From positions 1 through 30,963 of the IMG/VR virus record IMGVR_UViG_2548876954_000010: a DNA stretch of 30,963 bases; one strand, given 5' to 3'. This DNA comes from a virus. Taxonomy: Duplodnaviria > Heunggongvirae > Uroviricota > Caudoviricetes. This document shows, piece by piece, positions 51 through 20,233 of this stretch. The notes below the pieces were generated by a model. That model did not search any database. It saw nothing but the letters and a program-made list of their open reading frames with translations, and was not told where the DNA came from. A program made the position numbers and the translations under genes. How positions within the stretch are numbered: position 1 is the first letter of the stretch; each line of letters opens with the position of its first letter.

Positions 51-172
51 TAACAGGATGTCGCTTAAGCGAAACCTTAGTTAAGACGCTCCTATTAACA
101 CCCCATAACAAACAAACACTTACCATATAAAACAATTAGTTAATGCAATTTTTAATGCAGTGAATTGCAGCG

Positions 173-1244: not shown

Positions 1245-1583
1245 TCATTCGCAAAGTGCTGTCGCAGCATCCATTACGGGATCCAAAGGAATTTTTACTC
1301 CTTCATAATCCGGGCTATTTTTCCAAACAGTATCAATATCGCTCCCCTCAAGCTTTCCAGACTTTACACCATCAATAGCAAACCCATTTAATGGGTATCG
1401 GTCATCTGTTGCTTTGTCGTACACAAAGGCATATCTACCATTAACACAAGACACCGTAGCTTTTTCAAAAGTTAACGGCCAATCATCACCAAACTTAGCA
1501 CCGTCTAAATCCTGTGTTTTTTCAGCGGCTGATGCACCGAAAGAAAGTGAAAGAAATAAAGCTAAAAAAAGCTTACGTTTCAT
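1245..1583 (-). CDS. Small secreted/periplasmic protein of unknown function (moron between repressor and integrase)
   Basis: Start at MKRKLFLALFLSLSFGASA, a classic signal peptide with AxA cleavage motif, with AAGGGA RBS 4 nt upstream. AT-rich relative to the late genes. P2 itself has no gene between C and int, so this is an insertion in my recollection of the canonical layout. Confidence 0.6.
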   Translation of the reverse strand: MKRKLFLALFLSLSFGASAAEKTQDLDGAKFGDDWPLTFEKATVSCVNGRYAFVYDKATDDRYPLNGFAIDGVKSGKLEGSDIDTVWKNSPDYEGVKIPLDPVMDAATALCE

Positions 1584-1591
1584 AATGTCCC

Positions 1592-2428
1592 TTATACGTG
1601 TTTTTCCAATGTGAAAATTACAGCACCTACTGGTGTGATATCTGTAATGCTGCATTCAAACTCGGCAGACTTATTTGACAACCTGACTTTTCCGCCGGGA
1701 AGACGAATTACATCAAAAACATCAAGAGCGCCGTCAATATCAATTAACCAACGCCCATTACTTATGTTCGAAGCAGAACGGTTGACAAGCCAAGAGGCTC
1801 CAACACCTTCAACAAAAATCAACTCCTCTGAGTCAGAGGGTATCATCGAGGGGTCTGGATGCCATTCGCCAGCGTCCTTAAGCTCACCCGCTTCAAGGCG
1901 AAATTTTTTAATTGAAAAACTTGATGTGACCATTTCTCTGTTAGTTCGCATTTGCCCCTTGCCGGTTGCTAACCATTCCAGCGAAACACCAGTATCAAGG
2001 GCACAAGTAACAACTACATCGCCTGGGAAAAAATCACGCCGAACCCATGTGCTAATTGTTCCAGATGATATACCGAGTAAATCACCCAGCTCCTTTTGCA
2101 TAGAAAAACCGTAAGCATCAAGGATGCGTCTCAGAACAGGTTTACCACCTGAAGCCATGACCTTTTCATAAAGCTCTTTGCCCTTCAGGGTCGCACGTGG
2201 AGAGTTTGCTTTTGCAAGCTCCCCTGTCACTAACCATCCGATATCTGCGCCCGTTTCAATAGCACATTCAACAAATACATTGCCCGGAACGCTATCTCTG
2301 GCAAGCCAACTGCTTATGTTGTTGGCATAAATACCAAGTTTTTCGCCAAGTTCTTTTTGCGAGCTAAGTCCATAAGCCGAAAGGATTCTTTCGATAGCCG
2401 GAGCCGCACCATCTCCAAATTTAGCCAT
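1592..2428 (-). CDS. CI-type immunity repressor with tandem-duplicated N-terminal HTH domains
   Basis: 278 aa. Two consecutive copies of the same motif (ERILSAYGLSSQKELGEKLGIYANNISSWLARDSVPGNVFVECAIETGADIGWLVTG and RRILDAYGFSMQKELGDLLGISSGTISTWVRRDFFPGDVVVTCALDTGVSLEWLATG), followed by a ~120-aa C-terminal domain. Divergent from the apl/cII operon and upstream of int, as for a 186 CI-type repressor. Confidence 0.8.
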   Translation of the reverse strand: MAKFGDGAAPAIERILSAYGLSSQKELGEKLGIYANNISSWLARDSVPGNVFVECAIETGADIGWLVTGELAKANSPRATLKGKELYEKVMASGGKPVLRRILDAYGFSMQKELGDLLGISSGTISTWVRRDFFPGDVVVTCALDTGVSLEWLATGKGQMRTNREMVTSSFSIKKFRLEAGELKDAGEWHPDPSMIPSDSEELIFVEGVGASWLVNRSASNISNGRWLIDIDGALDVFDVIRLPGGKVRLSNKSAEFECSITDITPVGAVIFTLEKHV

Positions 2429-4488: not shown

Positions 4489-6711
4489 TTGGCTGTTCAA
4501 TTCGCTTATCCGTGGAATGCTCCACGATCGGCTATAGCCAGCCCATACCTTACTTATAAGCAACAGCATCGCCGCGACCGTATGTTCGCGGCGATGCTGC
4601 ATGCTAAAAAGGTGCTTTCTCTCCAGCCCGACTGCGTGCGGTTAGATGTTTATCGCACTGCGGCAGTGCTGGAGCAAAATCAGGGCATTCAACGAGCCAA
4701 TGCCTTTTTGATCAGCTTCTGCAAAAAGGCATTGCCGCGTCTTGAATTGGTCGCAAAAAAATACGAATGCGCGGGTATCAACAGCAAGGTATCAACCTCT
4801 GTTTTTGGAAGTCATTTTGATACCCAGCTTATGCAATATCTGGCGTCACGCATGGTTAATATGGTCGCCCGATATAACCGCCTCCCGGATATGTCGCGCG
4901 CTGATGTTGACCTGTTGGCCGCCGATATTGCTAATTTCATTCGTGGTGAACTTGCCAACATTAATGACCACGGATTCGGCGAGCTTAAAACGCTGTACAC
5001 CTGGTATAATCGTGCTGGCTTTATTTCCCTCCAGTTCAACGTTATCCCCCCCCATTGGGATCGGGTTGCAAAAAAATATGTTGGCGCGGATGAAATCGCA
5101 CCGGCTATCGCCAAGATGTTTAACGATGGGTGGTGGCGTGGTCGTTTGCGCCGGGTTGCAGCTACGTGGCGCGAACACCTGCAAATTGCAGTCGGCAACG
5201 TCAGCAAGAAAAAAAACACCTATGCGAGTAAAAACTGCGTGACTGACTGGCGTGAACAAAAGCGCCGAACTCGTGAATTTCTCAAAGGTCTGGATCTCGA
5301 AGACGAAGACGGCAACCGTATCAGCCTGATTGAAAAATATGATGGCTCAGTTGCTAACCCTGCGATTCGCCGCTGTGAGCTCATGACTCGCATTCGTGGG
5401 TTTGAAAACATCTGTAATGAGCTCGGTTATGTCGGTGAGTTTTACACTCTGACCGCGCCGTCGAAATATCACGCCACGACTAAAGCCGGTTACCGTAACA
5501 GCAAATGGAGCGGTGCCAGCCCGGCTGACACGCAAAACTATCTAACTGATATCTGGGCGCGTATCCGTGCCAAACTGCATCGGGAAGATGTCCGTATTTT
5601 CGGTATTCGTGTCGCCGAGCCCCATCACGACGGTACTCCACACTGGCACATGCTGATGTTCATGCTGCCGGAAGATGTTGAATATGTTCGCTCCATCGTC
5701 CGTAAATACGCGTGGAAAGAAGACCGCCGCGAACTGAAAAGCGATAAGGCAAAAAAAGCACGTTTCCACGCCGAGTCCATTGACCCGGAGAAAGGCAGCG
5801 CAACCGGCTATGTTGCTAAATACATATCAAAAAATATCGACGGTTATGCTCTCGATGGTGAAACCGATGATGAAAGCGGTGAACTGCTGAAAGAGACAGC
5901 CCCCGCCGTTTCAGCATGGGCTTCGCGCTGGCACATCCGTCAGTTTCAGTTTATCGGTGGTGCGCCGGTGACGGTTTACCGTGAGTTGCGTCGCCTCGCT
6001 GATACCGAAACCGCGCACGGACTGAGCGTTGAGTTTGCCGCCGTCCATGATGCCGCCGACGCTGGTGACTGGGCTGGTTATGTTAATGCGCAGGGTGGAC
6101 CGTTTGTCCGTCGCGATGATTTACAGGTGCGCACACTGTATGAACCACGTACCGAGCTTAATCAGTACGGTGAGGAAACGGTATGTATTAAGGGGGTCTA
6201 CGATTCCTCCATAGGTGCAGGTAGCCCGATTTTAACCCGGCTCACTCAGTGGAAGATTGTTCCGAAGCATGCTGTTGATTTGGCCGTTGACCTTCAGGAC
6301 GGCAAAGCCGTCCCTCGGAGTTCTGTCAATAACTGTACGGGAAGCGAAAACGCTCCACCGGTACTGGATTTGACAAAGCCCCTGAGTCGACGCGAAAGAC
6401 GAGAGCTAACCAACCGACTCAGGAAGCAAAAATCAGCAATACGGCGAAAGTTCAGCCACGGAACGGATGAGCAAAACGCAGCTATAGCTAAAACTATCGA
6501 CGAGATACAACTGACAACCGGCATTACAATCAGCCGGAGCGAAGCCCTGCACCTGATGGCCGGTGGTAAAAGTTGTTTTGATGGCAAATGGCTACGCGGA
6601 ACGGCCAAAGGGGAAATATTTTCCGCAGCACCATCGCATGAGGCTAAAGCTCGGAAAATCCTTAATCGTGTTGCGGCGATGGCTGAATCATCAAAACCAA
6701 CACATGAGTAA
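4489..6711 (+). CDS. A: Rolling-circle replication initiator endonuclease (P2 gpA family)
   Basis: 740-aa ORF. Contains the HUH-like motif region (EPHHDGTPHWHMLMF) and paired tyrosines in GYVAKYISKNIDGYAL. Codon at 4489 is TTG; the first in-frame ATG is at 4582, so the exact start is uncertain. Confidence 0.9.
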   Translation: MAVQFAYPWNAPRSAIASPYLTYKQQHRRDRMFAAMLHAKKVLSLQPDCVRLDVYRTAAVLEQNQGIQRANAFLISFCKKALPRLELVAKKYECAGINSKVSTSVFGSHFDTQLMQYLASRMVNMVARYNRLPDMSRADVDLLAADIANFIRGELANINDHGFGELKTLYTWYNRAGFISLQFNVIPPHWDRVAKKYVGADEIAPAIAKMFNDGWWRGRLRRVAATWREHLQIAVGNVSKKKNTYASKNCVTDWREQKRRTREFLKGLDLEDEDGNRISLIEKYDGSVANPAIRRCELMTRIRGFENICNELGYVGEFYTLTAPSKYHATTKAGYRNSKWSGASPADTQNYLTDIWARIRAKLHREDVRIFGIRVAEPHHDGTPHWHMLMFMLPEDVEYVRSIVRKYAWKEDRRELKSDKAKKARFHAESIDPEKGSATGYVAKYISKNIDGYALDGETDDESGELLKETAPAVSAWASRWHIRQFQFIGGAPVTVYRELRRLADTETAHGLSVEFAAVHDAADAGDWAGYVNAQGGPFVRRDDLQVRTLYEPRTELNQYGEETVCIKGVYDSSIGAGSPILTRLTQWKIVPKHAVDLAVDLQDGKAVPRSSVNNCTGSENAPPVLDLTKPLSRRERRELTNRLRKQKSAIRRKFSHGTDEQNAAIAKTIDEIQLTTGITISRSEALHLMAGGKSCFDGKWLRGTAKGEIFSAAPSHEAKARKILNRVAAMAESSKPTHE

Positions 6712-6785
6712 TTCATATCCATATCATGCACATACGGCAATCGCTCTATTCGTTTTTTTTCTTCCCATTTTTTGCCAATACGTGT

Positions 6786-6805
6786 TACTGTATAAATATA
6801 CAGTA
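6786..6805. promoter_or_regulatory. LexA (SOS) box overlapping a candidate promoter
   Basis: TACTGTATAAATATACAGTA is a near-perfect match to the E. coli LexA consensus (CTGT-N8-ACAG, palindromic). Candidate -35 TTGCCA lies upstream; a GGGAGGGA RBS and ATG at 6825 follow. Confidence 0.75.
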
Positions 6806-6824
6806 ACCCTGTGGGAGGGATTTC

Positions 6825-7007
6825 ATGGTTGGCGAACATTGCAGCCGAACGCAGCAAAAGTGGGCTTGTGTGCAATTTATTGCCGAGGTATCTCTGATTG
6901 CAAACTGCAAGCCATCAGACTTAAAGCTCGCGCTCACTCTCATTGCAGACCTAGCAAACAGCGAAAATAACGAAACCGAAGATGATAATTTTTATAAGGC
7001 TGATTAG
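6825..7007 (+). CDS. LexA-controlled small protein; possibly the N-terminal part of a Tum-type antirepressor
   Basis: 60-aa ORF with a strong RBS (GGGAGGGA, spacing 4) 20 bp downstream of the LexA box. It is followed within 3 bp by a dinI-like reading frame. 186 Tum is an SOS-induced antirepressor whose C-terminal part is DinI-like (recollection). Confidence 0.45.
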   Translation: MVGEHCSRTQQKWACVQFIAEVSLIANCKPSDLKLALTLIADLANSENNETEDDNFYKAD

Positions 7008-7009
7008 AT

Positions 7010-7240
7010 TATGAGAATCAATATCACGTTGGATAAAGAACAAAAAATTAGGGCAACAGATCATTGATGCTTTTCAGAATGAAATAACACATCGAGTACA
7101 ATGCGTTTTCCTGCAACAAAAGTTAACGTTAAGAAAGGGTCAATGACTAGTGTAGAGGCTATCGGATTCGATAAAGAGGCGGACAGAGAAACATTAGGCA
7201 GCATATTACAAGAGATGTGGGAAGACGATAGCTGGCGTTA
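7010..7240 (+). pseudogene. dinI-family gene disrupted by two frameshifts (DinI-like domain of a tum-type locus)
   Basis: Three collinear segments across two frames read MRINITLDKEQKIRATDH* / IDAFQNEITHRVQCVF... / MTSVEAIGFDKEADRETLGSILQEMWEDDSWR*. Together they track E. coli DinI end to end as I recall it (MRIEVT..., ...IDALAGELSRRIQYAF..., ...KEDKQRISEILQETWESADDWF...). Stops fall at 7064-7066 and 7143-7145. Confidence 0.5.
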
Positions 7241-7258
7241 AACATAATAACCGTGCTG

Positions 7259-7312
7259 GCGCAAAAACTAGCTTTTTGCGTCGGCGGGGTTGAGTAACGA
7301 GCCCACGAGGCT
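7259..7312. repeat. Copy A of a composite motif: 8-bp-stem hairpin followed by a conserved ~30-nt box
   Basis: Hairpin CGCAAAAA-ctagc-TTTTTGCG (7260-7280), then tcGGCGGGGTTGAGTAACGAGCCCACGAGGC. A second copy lies at 7664-7718. Confidence 0.5.
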
Positions 7313-7440
7313 TAAGTCCTGCCTTTCAAAATTTCTCAATGTGCTATTGATGACACGCCCATGATTAATGAGGCATGACCTGAGATAGTTTTATAGTGGC
7401 GTTTTGACGGCACTGATTAAAATTCATTGAGGGTGATAAT

Positions 7441-7650
7441 ATGCATCGACTACCAGGTGAAATTCCGCATCACAAAACTAAAAGCATCAAACTGATGGCC
7501 ATCGTTCATCGTCTGCAGCAGATAATGGTCAATGAGAATTTGACACCCACAGAGCTGGTCGGGTGTGCCGAAATAGTCAGGGATAATTACGGCAAGCTGG
7601 ATAGCATCAGCAGGCCGACACAATACGCCCCCCCACCACGTCGACGATAG
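7441..7650 (+). CDS. Hypothetical 69-aa protein
   Basis: ORF with a good RBS (GAGGGTGA) and ATG at 7441. Lies between the two copies of the hairpin-plus-box motif. No recognisable motif. Confidence 0.45.
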   Translation: MHRLPGEIPHHKTKSIKLMAIVHRLQQIMVNENLTPTELVGCAEIVRDNYGKLDSISRPTQYAPPPRRR

Positions 7651-7663
7651 CAAACGTCGTCAA

Positions 7664-7718
7664 GCGCTGAAACTCGCTTTCAGTGCTGACGGGGTTGAAC
7701 AACGAGCCACGCGAGGCG
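7664..7718. repeat. Copy B of the composite hairpin-plus-box motif
   Basis: Hairpin GCGCTGAAA-ctcgc-TTTCAGTGC, then tGACGGGGTTGAACAACGAGCCACGCGAGGC. The stem differs from copy A at paired positions (AA/TT in A versus TG/CA in B), so base-pairing is preserved. Confidence 0.5.
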
Positions 7719-8150
7719 TTAGTTGGTTACCTGATTGACACCGAGCGAAAGCAGGTTTGTCACCGCACCGGCAATAACTCCGGGTGTCCCGTCTTTCACC
7801 GCACTGATAATCTTATCGCCCAGCGTTTCATTACCGCCGAGTGCCTCGGGCTTTTTGTTGAGCACGGCGAGTGCTTTCTCGGTCAGGCGCACATCCCGAA
7901 AATAAGTCTGATTGTCTGTTTCATACTGGATGTAGCCGTTTTCACTGAGAAAAGTGAATGTACCCTCAACCACACTACGCAACTGATTCAGTGCTTTCAT
8001 TTCCGGTGAGTTAAGTTGGTCAAAGTAGTCATCAGGTAGCGCGGCGTTAAATTTTTCGTAGGTGATGACCTGCGGCACCGGGAAGTTATCCCATAACACC
8101 GCAAAAATTTCCGCCGTCTGCTGATTAAATAATTCGAGGTTTTTGGACAT
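7719..8150 (-). CDS. Hypothetical 143-aa protein (orphan gene in the A-to-cos accessory region)
   Basis: Minus-strand ORF with AAGGGA RBS upstream of ATG (8148-8150). Ends immediately beside motif copy B. No motif I can assign. Confidence 0.55.
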   Translation of the reverse strand: MSKNLELFNQQTAEIFAVLWDNFPVPQVITYEKFNAALPDDYFDQLNSPEMKALNQLRSVVEGTFTFLSENGYIQYETDNQTYFRDVRLTEKALAVLNKKPEALGGNETLGDKIISAVKDGTPGVIAGAVTNLLSLGVNQVTN

Positions 8151-8340
8151 GCATAATTCCCTTTCATCGATAGACCCGTTTGCCGATTGGGCAAAAAAGC
8201 TGACCGTAATGGCTTCAAATAACGACCTGAGTTCTCGTGAGGTGGAAAGCTACACCGAAAAAATGGTCGAGCAAGCCAGTAAAGATGAGCTTACGGTCGT
8301 TATCAAACACCTGTTAAACCACATCAGAATGCACAAATAA
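8143..8340 (+). CDS. Hypothetical small protein (65 aa); weak call
   Basis: ORF whose start overlaps head-to-head with the start of the 143-aa minus-strand gene. RBS is poor at 8143. A terminator follows at 8481-8505. May be spurious or start internally. Confidence 0.3.
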   Translation: MDMHNSLSSIDPFADWAKKLTVMASNNDLSSREVESYTEKMVEQASKDELTVVIKHLLNHIRMHK

Positions 8341-8480
8341 AATGATCTATATCAATATGTTATCTCTCGTTTATGAAAATCGGTGGACGACGATTTTTCT
8401 GCTGATTTTTGACAGCATGTGCCTCAATAGTGTTATTGGCGCATTACGCGGCCAGTAATCGCGCCAAAACCAGCCCCAAA

Positions 8481-8505
8481 CCGGCACCGTGAATGCCGGT
8501 TTTTT
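8481..8505 (+). terminator. Rho-independent terminator
   Basis: Stem CCGGCA (8481-8486) / TGCCGG (8494-8499) with a 7-nt loop, followed by TTTTTT (8500-8505). Confidence 0.55.
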
Positions 8506-8662
8506 ATGCCATTTTTCCGCGATTTCCCCGTTTTAGCCGTGCATGCAACAGGTGCATGGTTTTGCATTCGCAGGGGTTGCCCGTTCTGACCGTGCGCCGC
8601 CAGAGCTGGCGCGGATCCCGAGAGTTCATGCAACTGCATTAAAACCGCCCCGTAAAGCGGGC

Positions 8663-8681
8663 AGGCGTGGCGGGGAAAGTA
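8663..8681. other. cos: cos site (cohesive-end sequence) of the P2/186 family
   Basis: ggcgtggcggggaaagtat followed by tgcgcgctg matches my recollection of the P2 left end (GGCGAGGCGGGGAAAGCAC TGCGCGCTG...) and the 186 cos. It sits in a GC-rich hairpin-dense ~250-bp segment between the A-side accessory genes and the portal gene, where the permuted prophage map puts cos. Confidence 0.6.
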
Positions 8682-8796
8682 TTGCGCGCTGGATCATAAA
8701 CGATTGCTTACTTTGAAGAAAATAGTGTGCTTATGAACTGCAAACTTTATACAATCAGAATTTGCCGAATCTCTTTTTTGATGAATAAGGGTTTTT

Positions 8797-9624
8797 ATGA
8801 CTGGTGTTGTGAATTACGATGTGGTTATCAGGAGTGGTGATCAGCCCGTTGATATGGATTATGCGCTGGAAACGTTAGGCGGAGCATCGGAAGTTACCTG
8901 TTTACTAGCAGAAGCAATCCTACAAAAAAAAGTCGTTAAAAGAAGAAGTCCTGCTAATAAAGCGCGAGCAGTTTTACATCAGAGCTTCCCGAGTTCTTAT
9001 GGACAAAACTTTGCGTTAGCTATAGATGACCCAATATTAAAAGCTCGTTTAGTTGAAATAACCAACCCTGTACTTGCGGAAATTATGGGATTTTACATAT
9101 CTGAAGCTATGTATATACAACCTCCGGCTTTATCAGCACGAGCCAGACATTATATTGAAGAGCTTGAATATCTTGAAGATGAAATTATAAGCCGTATTCG
9201 GAATCCTTTAATACGCATGCACAAAATTAATTACCGTCGCAACTGGGATATTGATTTCAATTTTAAACCTGATGGTAGACAAAGAAAAATAGTGACTTTA
9301 AATACTAGGACTGCAGCAAATCTAACTCACACAACGGTTGAAAGGGAAAGATTTAATATAATTGCAATGGTTACAAGATTCAACTCTCGTACAGGTAATG
9401 GCCGTTTAGTGCTACAAGATGAGGACGAGACTGTTGCTTTTGGTTTTGCCAACCAATTAGGAATGGTTCCGTCCGCACAGAAAAGAATGATTTCTTTGAA
9501 TCTACATAATAATAATGGAAGATCCGATAATTACATATATCTTAGTATGACTGTCAGTAGGGTTGTAATTATGAGCGGTGAGACTGTAAAATATGCAGTA
9601 CACTCTGTGCGTGTATTGGAATAA
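8797..9624 (+). CDS. Hypothetical soluble 275-aa protein, first gene of an AT-rich two-gene cargo cassette
   Basis: ORF with AAGGG RBS. Markedly AT-rich compared with the flanking phage backbone. No TM segment or catalytic motif I can recognise. Its stop (9622-9624) is 2 nt from the next start. Confidence 0.7.
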   Translation: MTGVVNYDVVIRSGDQPVDMDYALETLGGASEVTCLLAEAILQKKVVKRRSPANKARAVLHQSFPSSYGQNFALAIDDPILKARLVEITNPVLAEIMGFYISEAMYIQPPALSARARHYIEELEYLEDEIISRIRNPLIRMHKINYRRNWDIDFNFKPDGRQRKIVTLNTRTAANLTHTTVERERFNIIAMVTRFNSRTGNGRLVLQDEDETVAFGFANQLGMVPSAQKRMISLNLHNNNGRSDNYIYLSMTVSRVVIMSGETVKYAVHSVRVLE

Positions 9625-9626
9625 GT

Positions 9627-10376
9627 ATGAATAGAATTAAGTGCATATGTGGGTTGATACTAGCTGCTGCTTGGGCAGCGTACTATCTTCATTTTGGCAT
9701 AGACGGAAGCCTCTCCCAAAAAACTGAAGTTTGGGGACAGTTTGGCGACTACGTAGGTGGGGTGGTCAACCCCATTTTAAGTTTTATAACCATATATCTA
9801 CTTATTAACTCAATAGGGTTACAGCGCGAATCTAATGAAAGCTTAACCAATGAAATAAAAAGACAAGAGAAGCTAGAGGAATATAAAAAATTTGAGCTAC
9901 GATTCTTTCGCTTGATTGAATCGCAGGAGGAAAACTTCAGTCGTTTTAAAATATGTATATCACAACAGGATGATGATGAGCAAAATGTTGATGAACAGTT
10001 AGAAAAAACAGATGAAATATTGAGTGGTGGAGCAGCAGTAACATTCATTGAAGATTGTTTGTTACCCCTCAAAGAGGCTGGAGTTAGCAAGGAGCGTGTA
10101 TTCCATTGGTTAGATAGTTTGGATGATGATGGATCATTTTTTTCATTAGTAAGACGTTTCTATCTCATTCTCAAATTAGTCGATGCCAATACACTTACAA
10201 AAAGCGAGAGAGATGAAATGTATGAAACGTTGATTAATCTTACTGATATTAAAGTAATTAGCATCATTGCAATCTTGAGTTTGCATTATGATTGGTACGC
10301 AATCAAATACATTAAGGCAACAAAAATTCTTGACAAGGAAGGAGTTAGGGAATTCGTTGAAATGTATAAAATTTAA
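9627..10376 (+). CDS. Hypothetical membrane protein (two N-terminal TM helices plus acidic cytoplasmic domain), second gene of the cassette
   Basis: N-terminus has two hydrophobic helices (ICGLILAAAWAAYYLHF and VGGVVNPILSFITIYLLINSIGL). The rest is charged and Asp/Glu-rich. AT-rich, closely spaced after the upstream gene, followed by a terminator. Confidence 0.7.
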   Translation: MNRIKCICGLILAAAWAAYYLHFGIDGSLSQKTEVWGQFGDYVGGVVNPILSFITIYLLINSIGLQRESNESLTNEIKRQEKLEEYKKFELRFFRLIESQEENFSRFKICISQQDDDEQNVDEQLEKTDEILSGGAAVTFIEDCLLPLKEAGVSKERVFHWLDSLDDDGSFFSLVRRFYLILKLVDANTLTKSERDEMYETLINLTDIKVISIIAILSLHYDWYAIKYIKATKILDKEGVREFVEMYKI

Positions 10377-10411
10377 TTGTGAAAATTTACAGTCAATTCA
10401 TGGCGATCGGT

Positions 10412-10437
10412 TGAAGCCGCTAACAAGCGGCTTTTCT
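10412..10437 (+). terminator. Rho-independent terminator closing the two-gene cassette
   Basis: Stem AAGCCGC (10413-10419) / GCGGCTT (10426-10432), then a T-rich tract. Sits between the cassette and the convergent portal gene. Confidence 0.55.
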
Positions 10438-10447
10438 ATATCGATAT

Positions 10448-11458
10448 TTATCCGATTGTGTAATCTTTAAAGCTTATTACCTTCACCCCCAGCCAGTCAT
10501 TAATTTCTTTGAATCGCTCCTGCAACGGTGTTAACTCGTTGCGAACAAACACCTTTGCTACCCTCTCAACATCCCCGAGCGATGCGATGTTTTCAGGCTT
10601 GCCCCCCATCAACTGGAACGGCACGCGGTGCGCATCGAGCAGGTCAGCGGCGCTCACCTTTTTAATATTGAAAAAGTCATCTTTCGTGGCAACCTCACTC
10701 AGCGGCACAATCTTGATACCATCCGGTTTCCCGTTCGGTGCGTAGAAAAACAGGTTTTTAAAATTCCCGAGTCCCTTTGAATCACGCATCGCAGAACGCA
10801 GTGACTCGACGTCGGTGCTGCTTTGGGCAGCGTCGGTGACGTACATGATGTAACCCGCGTGCGCGCCATTCTGGTAATACTTGCGACGAAACAGGGTGGC
10901 GGATTCATTCAGCCAGGCGGAATTGAGTGCGCTCAGATATTCAGGCATACCGTAAAGCTCCTGATTAATGTCAGGCTCCAGCAGATGAAACACCGAGCCG
11001 GGTGCGAACTGATGTGGGTTGTTAAAGCTCGACACGTACCAGTAAACACCATCCTCAACGCCACGACGGGTATATTTAGCTGGCGATGTTTCCAGTTTTA
11101 AAAGGTGACCGGTAACACTCATGCGCTTCTCAAGATAACCGTTCGCAAAGACCAGATAATCCAGCACGAGGCGGCTGAAATCCTGACGCGACAGCAGCGG
11201 GTGCGGGATGTAGGTGCTCGCCAGAATGTTACGTTTCACGTAAATCGGCGAGCTGTGATGAACGGCGGCGCGCAGGCTTTTTGCCAGACCAGAGAAGTTG
11301 ACCGGCGGCTCGTACCACTTACCGTTATTGATGCACTCGACATAATCGAGGATATCGCGACGATCCAGAACGGCAGAGGGCTCGCCAAAGGTGAACGCCT
11401 CCATTTTTTGCGGTGCGCTAACGGTCGTTGTGGTGGGTATCTTCAGTTGCTTTTTCAT
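10448..11458 (-). CDS. Q: Portal protein (P2 gpQ family)
   Basis: 336-aa minus-strand ORF directly downstream of the terminase ATPase gene. N-terminal region (FTFGEPSAVLDRRDILDYVECINNGKWYEP) matches P2 Q as I recall it. Leftward Q-P pair next to cos as in P2. Confidence 0.9.
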   Translation of the reverse strand: MKKQLKIPTTTTVSAPQKMEAFTFGEPSAVLDRRDILDYVECINNGKWYEPPVNFSGLAKSLRAAVHHSSPIYVKRNILASTYIPHPLLSRQDFSRLVLDYLVFANGYLEKRMSVTGHLLKLETSPAKYTRRGVEDGVYWYVSSFNNPHQFAPGSVFHLLEPDINQELYGMPEYLSALNSAWLNESATLFRRKYYQNGAHAGYIMYVTDAAQSSTDVESLRSAMRDSKGLGNFKNLFFYAPNGKPDGIKIVPLSEVATKDDFFNIKKVSAADLLDAHRVPFQLMGGKPENIASLGDVERVAKVFVRNELTPLQERFKEINDWLGVKVISFKDYTIG

Positions 11459-11459
11459 G

Positions 11460-13229
11460 TCAGTTAATATCCAGAATTGTCGTTGAATGCATGCCGCTAC
11501 CGGCGGAAAGAGGTTCGTTTAACAGGGCGTGCATGGTCGCCCATGCGATATCGGCGTGACTGGCTTCCTCGGTACGGCTGGCCTCGTAGGTGGCGCTGCG
11601 CCCGCTGCTGGTCATGGTTTTGCGAATCGACATAAACGACTGCGTGACGTCGGTTGCTCCGGCGTCGTACTCCAGACAGCCACGGCGAATGGTGTCTTTC
11701 GCCTTGAGTACCATTGCAGTTTTCATTTCAGGTGTGTAACGGATGCCGCGTGCCGCCGGGTAAAATGAGCGCACCAGCTGGAACACGCCGAGACCGAGGC
11801 CGGTTGCGTCAATGCCGATGTATTCGACGTTGTATTTCTCGGTCAGCTTGCGGATGCCCTCTGCCTGTGCTGCAAAATCCATGCCCTTCCACTGGTGGCG
11901 CTCCAGCATGCGGAACTTGCCACCAGAGACCACCGGCGGCGCGAGCACGACGCACCCGGCACTGTCGCCGGTGTGTGACGGGTCGTAGCCAATCCAGACA
12001 GGACGAGAGCCGAACGGATGGTCGGCGAACGGGGCAAAGTCCTCCCATTCCTCCATCACATCGACCATGCAGCGCTGCAGCTCCTCGAACGGGAATACCG
12101 ACGCTTTATCGTCGACAAACTCGCACATAAACAGGTTCTTAAAGTCCTCATCACTGTTTTCGCGTTTGAGCTGGTCGAGGTCGAACAGGGTGCAGCCACC
12201 CGCAAGGGCGTCCTCAATGGTGACAATCTGCCGCCACTGGCCATCGTCGCAGAGCTGGCCACCGGCGAGCGCGCTGTGACTGATGTCGATTTCGATGCGG
12301 TCGGCAATCCGGCTGCGCCCCTTGTTGAACAGCTCGCCAGACCAGAAGGGGTAAGCGCCGTGCGCCAGCGTGGAAGGTGTCGAAAAATAGGTCGAGCGCA
12401 GGTGCTTTTGCGAGGCCATGCCCGAGGCGACTTTGCGCAGTTTCTGAAAATTCGGGATCCAGAATATTTCATCGACATACAGATCGCCGTTATGGCTCTG
12501 CGCGGTGTTGGAATTGGTACCGAGAAAAATCAGTTTTGCGCCGTTGTTACCGATGACAATCGGGTCGCCAGTCAGGTCAACGTCGACCAGTCGCGCAAAC
12601 TGGATGATGTATTCGCGGAACACGTAAGCCTGCGTTTTACTGGCTGATAAAAATATCTGGTTATGGCCGGTTTTGAGTGCGCGCAGCAGTGCCTCGCGGG
12701 AGAAATAGAATGTCGCGCCAATCTGGCGGGATTTGAGAATGTCACGAATACGGTGCTCCAGTCCTGCGCGGTACCACTGCAACTGGTACTCGAAAGACTG
12801 GTCGAAAAATAATTCCTCTAGTTTATCGATAGCCTCGTCGCTGAAAAAATTCTTTTTCGGCTTTTTGCGCTCCCCTTTGTTGCGGTTGGCGACGTTGGGG
12901 TTAAGGTCGGCTTCGTTGCCGGTCTGGCTGTAGCGGTTGACTCGCGCCAACCGTTCAATCTGCCGTCCGAGCAGGTCAATCTCTTTGAAATCACCCCCTG
13001 TCTTTTGCGGCTTGGCGATGAGCTGAATCAGCCTGGCCTCAAGGCTGCTTTCAACGCGGGAAATCGGCGCGATGCCGTCCCAGCCGTCGCGCTGCTTCCA
13101 GCTCTGCACGGTCGGGCGCTTGACCTGCAGCATTTCGGCAATCTGTGGCACGGAAAACCCCTGCCAGTAAAGCAGCGATGCCTGGCGTCGCGGGTCATGC
13201 AACAAGGTTGTATCGGTGGAAATGGTCAT
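11460..13229 (-). CDS. P: Terminase large (ATPase) subunit (P2 gpP family)
   Basis: 589-aa minus-strand ORF. Size, position and divergent arrangement against the scaffold/capsid operon match P2 gpP. Confidence 0.9.
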   Translation of the reverse strand: MTISTDTTLLHDPRRQASLLYWQGFSVPQIAEMLQVKRPTVQSWKQRDGWDGIAPISRVESSLEARLIQLIAKPQKTGGDFKEIDLLGRQIERLARVNRYSQTGNEADLNPNVANRNKGERKKPKKNFFSDEAIDKLEELFFDQSFEYQLQWYRAGLEHRIRDILKSRQIGATFYFSREALLRALKTGHNQIFLSASKTQAYVFREYIIQFARLVDVDLTGDPIVIGNNGAKLIFLGTNSNTAQSHNGDLYVDEIFWIPNFQKLRKVASGMASQKHLRSTYFSTPSTLAHGAYPFWSGELFNKGRSRIADRIEIDISHSALAGGQLCDDGQWRQIVTIEDALAGGCTLFDLDQLKRENSDEDFKNLFMCEFVDDKASVFPFEELQRCMVDVMEEWEDFAPFADHPFGSRPVWIGYDPSHTGDSAGCVVLAPPVVSGGKFRMLERHQWKGMDFAAQAEGIRKLTEKYNVEYIGIDATGLGLGVFQLVRSFYPAARGIRYTPEMKTAMVLKAKDTIRRGCLEYDAGATDVTQSFMSIRKTMTSSGRSATYEASRTEEASHADIAWATMHALLNEPLSAGSGMHSTTILDIN

Positions 13230-19259: not shown

Positions 19260-20096
19260 CTAACCTCGTATTATTCCTCTCGATATTTTTATTGCTGGGT
19301 TTTCCTTTCTTATTTCATTTTTAATTTGCTCATCACAAATTAAATAATCTATGTTTTTTGCTTTAACAAGTTCTTTAACGCTAATGTTAATTGAATTTAA
19401 TAGATTTGCATTCCGCATGTTAGCCCCTTCATAAGTAACGGATTTAAAATCACATCCTTTTAATATGCAGCTTTTCATTTCGCTATCTGTAAAATACCCC
19501 CCTTCAAAACTGCAGTTTTCGAAAGTAACATTTTGAAAACGTGTATTAAATGCCTTAATATTTCTTAGCTTGCAGTTTTTGAATTTAACACTCTTAACTC
19601 TATTGCCTGTAATATTTAGAGCTTGAATTGTGCAATTATCGAAAGAACAATCTCTAATGTATGATTCGCTCATATTCAAGCCGGTTAAGTCAGCGTCTTT
19701 AAAATGTAAGTATTTGATAGTGGACATTTTATCAAGTTCAATCCTTGGAACTTGAATGTTATATATTCCTTTGGCATTTAACTGACGTATGATTTTTATC
19801 TTCATAATATTCAGTTCTGCAGAAGAATGCTTTGCCAGATTTTCAAGATCTTCAATTAGTTCGTGAATAGCATCTTTATTTTGCCTTTTATTTTCAAAAT
19901 AGTAAAGGATCACACCCAAAACAAGAAAGTCTAAAATTGAAGAATTTGCATTAACAAGAAAATTCTCCATGAATTTTGAGTTGTAGTTATCATTATAAAC
20001 AGACAACCCTACTATAAGCCCGGAGTATAAAAAAAAGATACCTATAATATATTTCATATTGCTTATTGTACGCCTAAAAGATGAAGTTCTTTTCAT
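19260..20096 (-). CDS. Membrane-anchored pentapeptide-repeat protein (moron, antisense to the late operon)
   Basis: Minus-strand ORF. Start taken at MKRTSS (20094-20096), with 20141 also possible. Two N-terminal hydrophobic helices (YIIGIFFLYSGLIVGLSV, ILDFLVLGVILYYF), then ~20 tandem pentapeptide repeats (CSFDN CTIQA LNITG NRVKS VKFKN CKLRN IKAFN TRFQN VTFEN CSFEG ...). Very AT-rich against a GC-rich backbone. Confidence 0.7.
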   Translation of the reverse strand: MKRTSSFRRTISNMKYIIGIFFLYSGLIVGLSVYNDNYNSKFMENFLVNANSSILDFLVLGVILYYFENKRQNKDAIHELIEDLENLAKHSSAELNIMKIKIIRQLNAKGIYNIQVPRIELDKMSTIKYLHFKDADLTGLNMSESYIRDCSFDNCTIQALNITGNRVKSVKFKNCKLRNIKAFNTRFQNVTFENCSFEGGYFTDSEMKSCILKGCDFKSVTYEGANMRNANLLNSINISVKELVKAKNIDYLICDEQIKNEIRKENPAIKISRGIIRG

Positions 20097-20233
20097 TACT
20101 ACCTGCCATATGTTTTGTGTGATTTTCGAATGAGTCAACACTCAAATGATACATGAATGCACACCGAATTGTGTAGAAGAGCATACAGCTGAATCGTTTT
20201 GCTCTTGGCTTTAACAATCGGCATTCTTTGTTC

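What the first reader, a model, noticed from the sequence alone, without database searches (positions are those of the whole stretch)
8430..8681. Prophage is circularly permuted with cos in the interior, so two separate cargo positions flank the packaging site
The cos sequence lies at 8663-8681, preceded by a GC-rich hairpin-dense segment and a terminator. In virion coordinates the genome would run from cos through the cassette, Q and P to D and the integration region, then back to A and the tum locus. Accessory DNA is present on both sides of cos (6712-8340 and 8797-10437). Both ends of the packaged genome therefore carry cargo; that, together with an apparently intact packaging and morphogenesis set, suggests a mobile, still-packageable element that delivers the cargo.
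Basis: partly seen in the sequence, partly recalled or inferred. Interest (0 to 1): 0.4.

Follow-up and report, generated by a model that had tools for sequence, protein, structure and literature searches.

The report
P2/186-type cos site inside known cargo hotspot
The window holds an ordinary 186-like E. coli prophage whose DNA-packaging site (cos) sits between the replication gene and the portal gene with variable accessory genes on both sides, an arrangement described since 1996; only the two-gene cassette next to cos is uncharacterised.

Summary
It matches phage 186 at 18 of 19 bases. It is preceded by about 190 bp homologous to the phage 186 right end, including the t95b-like terminator at 8478-8508. 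Homology to 186 and P2 stops 7 bp after the cohesive end. There, an AT-rich 1.77-kb segment with two genes (275 aa and 249 aa) replaces the usual ~180-bp cos-portal spacer. The A side holds a LexA-controlled operon plus variable small ORFs.

An interior cos follows from Campbell-type integration. The gpA-cos-gpQ interval is the published P2 cargo and defence hotspot (Rousset 2022). Replacement of the cos-to-terminator DNA in 186-related prophages was described by Dodd and Egan in 1996. This exact gene arrangement is already listed in Rousset's Table S5A.

In 94 sampled P2-like loci, 16% carry cargo on the portal side, including a retron I-C, DRT2 and AbiL.

Packageability is plausible: the late genes are annotated intact, the core cos is intact and the prophage is about 31.3 kb. 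It is untested. The only open item is the cassette, an OB-fold protein plus a two-helix membrane protein with no known family. It is a candidate defence system.

The parts
79..91 (.). att core (attL), AGTTAAGACGCTC. The second copy lies about 440 bp beyond the window end, at the rplS 3' end. The prophage is about 31.3 kb.
   Evidence: Longest exact repeat between the two prophage borders. Only 13 bp, so tentative.
4582..6711 (+). Replication endonuclease gene A; left boundary of the hotspot.
   Evidence: RefSeq annotation; Pfam Phage_GPA in relatives.
6786..6805 (+). LexA box TACTGTATAAATATACAGTA (CTGT-N8-ACAG), at the position of the phage 186 p95 SOS promoter.
   Evidence: Read from the sequence. 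Phage 186 annotates a LexA site at the equivalent place.
6825..7007 (+). 60-aa ORF, the first gene of the SOS operon (phrog_1993). Not similar to phage 186 Tum.
   Evidence: conserved in S3, Midge and L127.
7012..7242 (+). DinI-like gene, disrupted. A stop follows codon 18, and the C-terminal DinI match is in another frame.
   Evidence: Pfam DinI hit on 7083-7241 only. Relatives have an intact 77-aa DinI.
7259..7303 (+). Copy 1 of a ~50-nt hairpin-containing boundary element.
   Evidence: Direct repeat D1, 76% identity; fold.
7441..7650 (+). orf69 (phrog_11386), a small accessory module bracketed by the two boundary-element copies. Absent from the strain S3 prophage.
7664..7708 (+). Copy 2 of the boundary element. 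Its right edge coincides with homology breakpoints among E. coli prophages (about 7714-7752).
7719..8150 (-). 143-aa ORF (phrog_2266), half of a divergent accessory pair next to the cos flank.
   Evidence: the homologue in Midge is annotated as a putative regulator.
8149..8340 (+). ~64-aa ORF (phrog_2454), the last gene before the virion right end.
8478..8508 (+). Intrinsic terminator homologous to phage 186 t95b; the end of the rightward SOS/accessory transcript.
8540..8663 (.). cos flank on the virion right-end side. It holds TGCAT-containing repeats (about -111 to -97) and a highly conserved block (-36 to -1). Presumed terminase recognition region.
   Evidence: Alignment to 186 and P2; conservation across 107 distinct loci. 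The exact -24..-1 sequence is seen in 3 other loci. Terminase binding is inferred.
8664..8682 (+). 19-nt cohesive-end sequence (cos nicking region), GGCGTGGCGGGGAAAGTAT.
   Evidence: The T17 variant also occurs in other P2-like lineages.
8683..8689 (.). TGCGCGC, the last conserved bases of the cos core. The cargo junction lies immediately after it.
8690..10447 (+). Foreign AT-rich segment that replaces the ~180-bp cos-portal spacer and its terminator.
8797..9624 (+). 275-aa protein of unknown function. The model is confident (pLDDT 91). A ~75-residue stretch matches OB-fold proteins; its placement in the C-terminal domain is inferred from the weak DUF7947 hits of distant homologues. DUF7946/DUF7947 similarity is sub-threshold.
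9627..10376 (+). 249-aa partner protein with two N-terminal hydrophobic helices read here as membrane-spanning, a long helix and a helical C-terminal domain. Always found next to the 275-aa gene.
10413..10438 (+). Hairpin with a U-tract on the + strand only. It is the cassette's terminator. The portal operon's own U-tract terminator (186 tW) is missing here.
10448..11458 (-). Portal gene (P2 Q / 186 W homologue); right boundary of the hotspot. Its last ~25 codons are a different allele from 186.
11460..13229 (-). Terminase large subunit (P2 P homologue), the enzyme that would cut cos.
   Evidence: same length as the phage 186 homologue.

Best explanation
The window is a complete-looking 186-like (Eganvirus-type, Peduoviridae) prophage. 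It is integrated between yfiB and rplS of E. coli.

Its cos site is at 8664-8682. It lies where it does in every P2-family phage: in the gap between two converging transcription units, the rightward A/SOS operon and the leftward portal-terminase operon. Integration happens at att, far from cos, so cos is interior to the prophage. After excision and circularisation, terminase would nick 19 nt apart at cos and produce a linear genome of about 31.3 kb.

The recognition determinants sit almost entirely on the A side of the nick (about 36 bp tightly conserved, plus TGCAT repeats around -100) and reach only 7 bp (TGCGCGC) on the portal side. That leaves two stretches where DNA can be replaced without touching an operon or the packaging signal: A-stop to the cos flank, and cos+7 to the portal 3' end.

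Both stretches are filled here.
- The A side holds a LexA-controlled small-ORF/DinI operon plus small modular ORFs.
- The portal side holds a foreign two-gene cassette with its own terminator.

Cargo is probably exchanged by recombination in the conserved flanks between related phages. The portal-side cassette is most likely an anti-phage (abortive-infection-type) module, with a soluble OB-fold sensor protein and a membrane effector.

Shown: the sequence anatomy, the homology breakpoints, how often each slot is occupied, and the defence content of the same slot in other phages. Inferred: cleavage at cos, terminase binding to the flank, the exchange mechanism and the cassette's function.
For: cos identity and context.

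Asymmetric conservation around the nick site: in 107 distinct loci, positions -36..-1 are mostly >=0.9 conserved. Positions 0..+25 were fixed by the search pattern. Conservation is <=0.8 beyond +26.

Junction: unrelated cargos begin right after TGCGCGC in the 10 sampled loci with >=900 bp of portal-side cargo, and also in L127-L130 and in T17-variant loci.

Slot occupancy: 79 of 94 P2-like loci have 172-191 bp between cos and the portal stop; 15 have 386-3220 bp. The A-to-cos distance ranges from 559 to 6041 bp.

Content of the portal-side slot elsewhere: retron RT-Toprim I-C, DRT2, AbiLi/AbiLii, an ATPase system related to HEC-02/PD-T4-4, and PDC-S02.

Foreign composition of 8690-10447. The cassette is present in only 4 of 5426 complete E. 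coli genomes.

The two cassette genes stay paired down to ~35-55% identity. They occur in the same slot in E. coli and Pectobacterium prophages, and also next to an integrase with Mrr and type I restriction genes, in an Aeromonas prophage-like region, and near an IS in Chromobacterium.

Completeness: all late genes are annotated intact, ogr lies just beyond the window, and the att-to-att size is about 31.3 kb against 30.6 kb for 186 and 33.6 kb for P2.

Literature: PMC9122126, PMC5694545, PMC13586616.
Against: No experiment bears on cleavage or particle production.

The C17T change inside the cohesive end is rare. Among the first 117 distinct cos loci sampled, only one had T17, on a different background.

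The DinI-like gene is broken, and the first SOS-operon ORF has no similarity to phage 186 Tum, so SOS induction is uncertain.

The portal operon's U-tract terminator has been lost.

The cassette proteins match no PADLOC, Pfam or NCBIfam model at significant level and no solved structure by sequence. The defence role therefore rests on position and gene context only.

The cos sample required TGCGCGC in the search pattern, so conservation of +20..+26 was imposed, not measured.
Confidence: 0.85

Rival explanations
1. The prophage is cryptic or defective. The cos sequence is a relic that is no longer cut or used, so the flanking genes are simply chromosomal passengers and are not delivered by particles.
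For: The DinI-like gene is disrupted. No recognisable homologue of 186 Tum is present, although the repressor is of the 186 CI type. The cohesive end carries a rare C17T change. The portal-operon terminator is replaced by a hairpin without a U-tract on that strand.
Against: All head, tail, lysis and terminase genes are annotated full-length, with lengths matching 186. The whole conserved cos core is intact, and its -24..-1 sequence is identical to that of other loci. T17 occurs in at least 8 other distinct P2-like contigs. The size fits a P2-type capsid. Near-identical copies occur in four E. coli strains from human, dog and wallaby hosts.
Confidence: 0.2
2. Only the portal side is true cargo. 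The A-side segment is part of the conserved regulatory backbone of this phage lineage (the SOS-induction operon and its neighbours), so there is one cargo position and not two.
For: The LexA box, the 60-aa ORF and DinI are conserved at >=90% identity in many 186-like prophages and in isolated phages such as Midge and SEN1. The 143-aa/65-aa pair is also widespread, at about 84% identity in many E. coli genomes.
Against: The same interval holds orf97 in 186 and old/tin in P2. orf69 is present or absent among otherwise 97%-identical prophages. A-to-cos lengths range from 559 to 6041 bp.
Confidence: 0.25
3. The portal-side cassette is not a defence system. It could be a lysogenic-conversion, superinfection-exclusion or phage-benefit module, for example a membrane protein that alters the cell surface or helps the phage's own cycle.
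For: No match to any defence model. OB folds also occur in toxin B subunits and metal-binding proteins among the top structural hits. Rousset 2022 notes that the hotspot also holds partition systems and toxins.
Against: The same slot in other phages holds a retron, DRT2 and AbiL. One distant homologue lies beside Mrr and type I restriction genes. A soluble protein paired with a small membrane protein is a common abortive-infection layout (general knowledge). One partner homologue is named 'phage abortive infection protein' by UniRef, an unverified label.
Confidence: 0.35

Closest known systems
cos site of coliphage 186 (NC_001317), and of P2 and P4
   Same: The cohesive-end sequence matches at 18 of 19 bases. 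The following TGCGCGC is identical. About 190 bp of homologous flank on the virion right-end side includes t95b. The position between A and the portal gene is the same.
   Different: C17T inside the overhang. On the portal side, everything beyond 7 bp after the cohesive end (the ~160-bp G/T-rich spacer and the tW terminator of 186) is replaced.
Retron Ec67/Ec86 replacement of the DNA between cos and a transcription terminator in a 186-related prophage (Dodd & Egan 1996, Virology 219:115; known here only from its title as cited in PMC5694545 and PMC6868368)
   Same: Foreign AT-rich DNA replaces the short cos-portal spacer of a 186-like prophage, starting right next to cos. A sampled locus (L125) has an Ec67-type RT-Toprim retron in exactly this slot.
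   Different: The cargo here is not a retron. The right junction runs past the terminator into the last codons of the portal gene. In the relative L127 the 186 tW terminator is kept.
P2-like gpA-gpQ anti-phage hotspot (Rousset et al. 2022, PMC9122126; Odegrip 2006 as cited there; follow-up PMC13586616)
   Same: Same interval, same adjacency to cos, same high turnover. This exact six-gene arrangement is in their Table S5A.
   Different: Those papers treat the interval as one hotspot and, in the text read here, do not separate the two sides of cos. All six genes are listed there as hypothetical and were not tested.
Lambda-type prophage map permutation (Campbell model)
   Same: cos is interior to the prophage because att and cos are at different places on the circular form (established knowledge).
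   Different: None relevant. From memory, not checked here: P2-type terminase is reported to use monomeric circles and not concatemers.

Membership tests
P2/186-type cos site (Peduoviridae) | 19-nt cohesive-end sequence GGCGNGGCGGGGAAAGYAY | tested here: met
   8664-8682 matches 186 at 18/19 and P2 at 16/19; chance expectation is 0.02 per window.
P2/186-type cos site (Peduoviridae) | Conserved ~55-bp core around the nick sites (Ziermann & Calendar 1990, as cited in PMC5694545) | tested here: met
   Positions -36..+26 are intact. The -24..-1 sequence is identical to that of 3 other loci.
P2/186-type cos site (Peduoviridae) | Located between the end of the A operon and the 3' end of the portal gene, with cognate terminase genes present | tested here: met
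   A at 4582-6711; portal at 10448-11458(-); large terminase at 11460-13229(-); terminase endonuclease subunit annotated downstream.
P2/186-type cos site (Peduoviridae) | Terminase cleavage giving 19-nt 5' overhangs in virion DNA | not testable with these tools
   Requires induction and end sequencing.
P2-like gpA-gpQ cargo/defence hotspot (Rousset 2022) | Variable gene content between gpA and gpQ among otherwise related prophages | tested here: met
   the arrangement is listed in Table S5A.
P2-like gpA-gpQ cargo/defence hotspot (Rousset 2022) | Cargo confers anti-phage defence | tested here: inconclusive
   No PADLOC, Pfam or NCBIfam match for the cassette. Only gene-context evidence is available.
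cos-to-terminator replacement slot of 186-related prophages (Dodd & Egan 1996) | Foreign DNA replaces the spacer between cos and the portal terminator | tested here: met
   Homology to 186 ends at 8689 and resumes at 10458. The spacer is 186-195 bp in 186, P2 and Midge, against 1765 bp here.
cos-to-terminator replacement slot of 186-related prophages (Dodd & Egan 1996) | Cargo is a retron (RT plus msr/msd) | tested here: not met
   Neither cassette protein has a reverse-transcriptase match, and Rfam finds no RNA family. The slot is the same but the cargo is different.
Known anti-phage systems (PADLOC-DB 2.0) | Significant match of the cassette proteins to a system model | tested here: not met
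   The only hit is a weak one (E=3e-4) to the N-terminal segment of the ZorB model, covering residues 25-88 of the 249-aa protein.

The most novel reading that the evidence does not exclude
The 275-aa OB-fold protein and its 249-aa two-helix membrane partner (8797-10376) form a previously undescribed two-gene anti-phage (abortive-infection-type) system. It travels in the cos-to-portal slot of 186-like phages and also occurs in other mobile contexts. In addition, the ~50-nt hairpin element that brackets orf69 could be a recombination or boundary signal that drives module exchange on the A side.
Probability: 0.4. Interest if true: 0.45.

Novelty: already known. Interest (0 to 1): 0.15.

Why it matters
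As stated, the finding adds little. It rediscovers the standard prophage map of a cos phage and a published cargo hotspot.

Three modest points have some value.
- Comparative data place the portal-side edge of the cos signal at 7 bp after the cohesive end, and show that about one in six sampled P2-like phages use that side for cargo.
- This prophage is a natural vehicle with both slots filled and a capsid-compatible size.
- The portal-side cassette is a well-conserved, structurally confident gene pair without annotation, sitting in a slot that otherwise holds retrons, DRT2 and AbiL. That makes it a reasonable candidate for defence-system screening.

Tried and rejected
- Hairpin next to the nick site: across about 125 loci the 3' half (AAGCGGGC) is nearly invariant, while the 5' half varies without compensation. 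I do not claim a conserved stem there.
- Rfam scan of the whole window: no family found.
- Pfam, NCBIfam and PADLOC on all hotspot ORFs: the only hit above a family's curated cut-off is DinI. The other hits are weak: ZorB and RecJ_C and NCBIfam PRK09040. Scanning all 32 partner homologues against Pfam gave only scattered noise.
- PDB sequence search with profiles of both cassette proteins: nothing meaningful.
- BLASTP of the 60-aa SOS-operon ORF against 186 Tum: no alignment. 'tum locus' is therefore right only in position and LexA control.
- The 186 t95a terminator was checked as a possible second copy of the boundary element. It is unrelated.
- The 68-aa ORF on the minus strand across the cos flank (8433-8639) has no PHROG or Pfam match and overlaps the conserved non-coding cos flank. 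I treat it as non-coding.
- The promoter scan found no convincing sigma-70 promoter upstream of the cassette. A TACAAT at 8750-8755 has a poor -35, so no promoter is claimed.
- DNA search of the cassette against 50,697 phage records: no match. A protein search found one 27%-identical hit in a Klebsiella phage.

Full report
**What the window is.**
The window matches the chromosome of E. coli TUM14697 (NZ_CP128888) with 8 mismatches over 30,963 bases. RefSeq annotates the region as a contiguous P2-family prophage between yfiB and rplS. Its gene order is:
- integrase, a DUF2511 ORF, 186-type CI repressor, CII, Fil, replication endonuclease A;
- six small or hypothetical ORFs;
- portal, terminase ATPase, scaffold, capsid, terminase endonuclease subunit, head completion;
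- lysis genes, tail and baseplate genes, tape measure and D.

An ogr-like regulator lies just beyond the window end. None of these genes is flagged as a pseudogene. A 13-bp sequence, AGTTAAGACGCTC, occurs at window 79-91 and again at the rplS 3' end about 440 bp past the window. This gives a prophage of about 31.3 kb. Phage 186 is 30.6 kb and P2 is 33.6 kb. The closest phage records are 186-like (Eganvirus-type) phages of Escherichia, Salmonella, Yersinia and Klebsiella.

**The cos site.**
The only match in the window to the P2 cohesive end is 8664-8682, GGCGTGGCGGGGAAAGTAT; 0.02 matches are expected by chance. The annotated cos of phage 186 is GGCGTGGCGGGGAAAGCAT followed by TGCGCGC. The window differs at one base (C17T) and keeps the TGCGCGC.

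To the left of the site, about 190 bp align well with the right end of phage 186. This stretch contains:
- a hairpin plus T-run at 8478-8508, which corresponds to the annotated t95b terminator of the 186 SOS operon;
- TGCAT-containing repeats;
- the block CATGCAACTGCATTAAAACCGCCCCGTAAAGCGGGCA directly before the nick site.

The phage 186, SEN1 and EtG records end at the position equivalent to 8663.

'GC-rich and hairpin-dense' is an overstatement. GC is 53-56%, about the level of the neighbouring phage core genes. The fold z-score is -2.1.

**How far the packaging signal extends.**
I scanned IMG/VR for GGCGNGGCGGGGAAAGNANTGCGCGC and took the first 120 loci returned. Anchored on the nick site, 107 distinct sequences gave this profile:
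- near-invariance from about -36 to -1;
- a second conserved patch near -111 to -97 (GCATGGTTTTGCATG);
- only 0.4-0.8 conservation beyond +26.

Positions 0 to +25 were fixed by the search pattern, so their conservation was imposed and not measured. The profile agrees with the 55-bp core attributed to Ziermann & Calendar 1990 in PMC5694545.

The window's -24..-1 sequence is identical to that of three other loci. T at position 17 is rare in the first sample. It does occur in at least eight other distinct P2-like contigs, so the position tolerates variation. An apparent hairpin next to the nick shows no compensatory changes, and I do not claim it as a structure.

**The portal side of cos.**
In 186, P2 and the isolated phage Midge, 186-195 bp separate cos from the portal stop codon, and this spacer ends in a U-tract terminator. 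In the window the distance is 1765 bp. Homology to 186 and P2 stops at 8689 and resumes at 10458, inside the last codons of the portal gene. The intervening DNA is 30-43% GC, against about 52% for the phage core.

This DNA encodes two co-oriented genes, 8797-9624 (275 aa) and 9627-10376 (249 aa). They are followed by a hairpin at 10413-10434 that has a U-tract only on the cassette's strand.

The segment is found in 4 of 5426 complete E. coli genomes. No phage record matches it at the DNA level.

In the IMG/VR sample, 79 of 94 loci with a portal gene have the 'empty' 172-191-bp spacer, and 15 have 386-3220 bp. In the 10 loci with at least 900 bp of cargo, the foreign DNA begins right after TGCGCGC. 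The same junction is seen in L127-L130 and in T17-variant loci. The larger cargos include a retron RT-Toprim type I-C, DRT2, AbiLi/AbiLii, an ATPase system related to HEC-02/PD-T4-4, and PDC-S02.

**The A side of cos.**
From the A stop codon (6711) to cos is 1952 bp. It contains, in order:
- A near-perfect LexA box at 6786-6805, at the position of the 186 p95 promoter.
- A 60-aa ORF that is conserved in relatives but unrelated to 186 Tum.
- A DinI-like gene that is disrupted here and intact (77 aa) in relatives.
- orf69 (7441-7650), bracketed by two copies of a ~50-nt hairpin-containing element at 7259-7303 and 7664-7708.
- A divergent 143-aa/65-aa pair.

The S3 prophage has a single copy of the element and no orf69. 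The same element occurs once in 186, in Midge and in eight sampled loci. Homology breakpoints among E. coli prophages fall at its right edge.

This side is therefore part regulatory backbone and part variable cargo. In 186 the equivalent space holds orf97, and in P2 it holds old and tin. Across the sample, the A-to-cos distance ranges from 559 to 6041 bp.

**The cassette.**

The 249-aa partner has two N-terminal hydrophobic helices, which I read as membrane-spanning, followed by a long helix and a helical domain. It gave no informative structural or sequence match.

The two genes stay adjacent across all contexts examined:
- the same cos-portal slot in other E. coli and Pectobacterium 186-like prophages, at 54-58% identity;
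- an Aeromonas prophage-like region;
- beside valS and an IS fragment in Chromobacterium;
- next to an integrase, Mrr and a type I restriction subunit on a metagenomic contig.

This is the behaviour of a mobile two-gene module. A defence role is plausible but rests only on position and neighbours.

**Comparison with what is known.**
- An interior cos is the Campbell-model consequence of integration at att, which is established knowledge.
- Rousset et al. 2022 describe the gpA-gpQ interval next to cos as a hotspot, with 1,650 arrangements in 18,150 E. coli loci.
- Their Table S5A lists exactly WP_001407039 + WP_071605795 + WP_001407041 + WP_001407038 + WP_001407037 + WP_001407036, all as hypothetical.
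- The Dodd & Egan title describes retrons Ec67 and Ec86 replacing DNA between cos and a terminator of a 186-related prophage.
- A 2026 follow-up confirms the A-Q hotspot on 8165 P2-like prophages.

**Verdict.**
It is also already known, and it is ordinary for this phage family. Packageability is likely but untested. The caveats are the broken DinI-like gene, the absence of a Tum homologue, the rare cohesive-end variant and the lost portal-operon terminator. The residual interest lies in the uncharacterised cassette and, to a lesser degree, in the boundary element that flanks orf69.

Noticed in passing
window 7259-7303 and 7664-7708: A ~50-nt direct repeat (76% identity) made of a strong hairpin followed by GRCGGGGTTGA..AACGAGCC brackets the orf69 module. 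The near-identical S3 prophage has one copy and no orf69. The element occurs once in phage 186 (after orf97), in Midge (after DinI) and in 8 IMG/VR P2-like loci. Homology breakpoints among E. coli prophages fall at its edge. It may be a module-boundary or recombination element, or a terminator.
   Followed up: partly
window 7012-7242: The DinI-like gene is disrupted: it starts MRINITLDKEQKIRATDH and then hits a stop, and the C-terminal DinI match is in another frame. RefSeq annotates only a 32-aa remnant. Relatives (L127, S3, Midge) have an intact 77-aa DinI. The divergence starts at about 7055, which suggests a recombination junction inside the gene.
   Followed up: partly
window 6825-7007: The first ORF behind the LexA box (60 aa, phrog_1993) has no detectable similarity to phage 186 Tum, although the prophage has a 186-type CI repressor. 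The antirepressor of this lineage, if there is one, is unidentified.
   Followed up: partly
window 19260-20141 (- strand): A 293-aa pentapeptide-repeat protein is encoded on the opposite strand, between the virion-morphogenesis gene and baseplate gene V. This is a third accessory position inside the tail gene cluster. It weakly hits the Hailong effector HalA model (E=4e-12, far below cut-off) and Qnr-type models.
   Followed up: no
window 1245-1655 (- strand): A DUF2511-annotated ORF lies between the integrase and the CI repressor. It may be another small accessory gene, at a position that PMC13586616 lists as a minor defence hotspot.
   Followed up: no
window 10413-10438 and 10448-10520: The hairpin between the cassette and the portal gene has a U-tract only on the + strand, so the portal-terminase operon lacks the canonical tW terminator of 186. 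The last ~25 codons of the portal gene are a different allele from 186, Midge and L127. The cargo exchange therefore crossed over inside the portal gene.
   Followed up: partly
IMG/VR loci L088, L117, L125: Three loci with large portal-side cargo (1.5-3.1 kb) have the smallest A-side intervals seen (559-576 bp). The two sides may be filled independently, or may trade off under the capsid size limit. The sample is too small to test this.
   Followed up: no
window 8433-8639 (- strand): A 68-aa ORF spans the conserved non-coding cos flank. Some phage records annotate a hypothetical protein there (for example Midge CPTMidge_047), but it has no family match and is probably a spurious gene call.
   Followed up: partly
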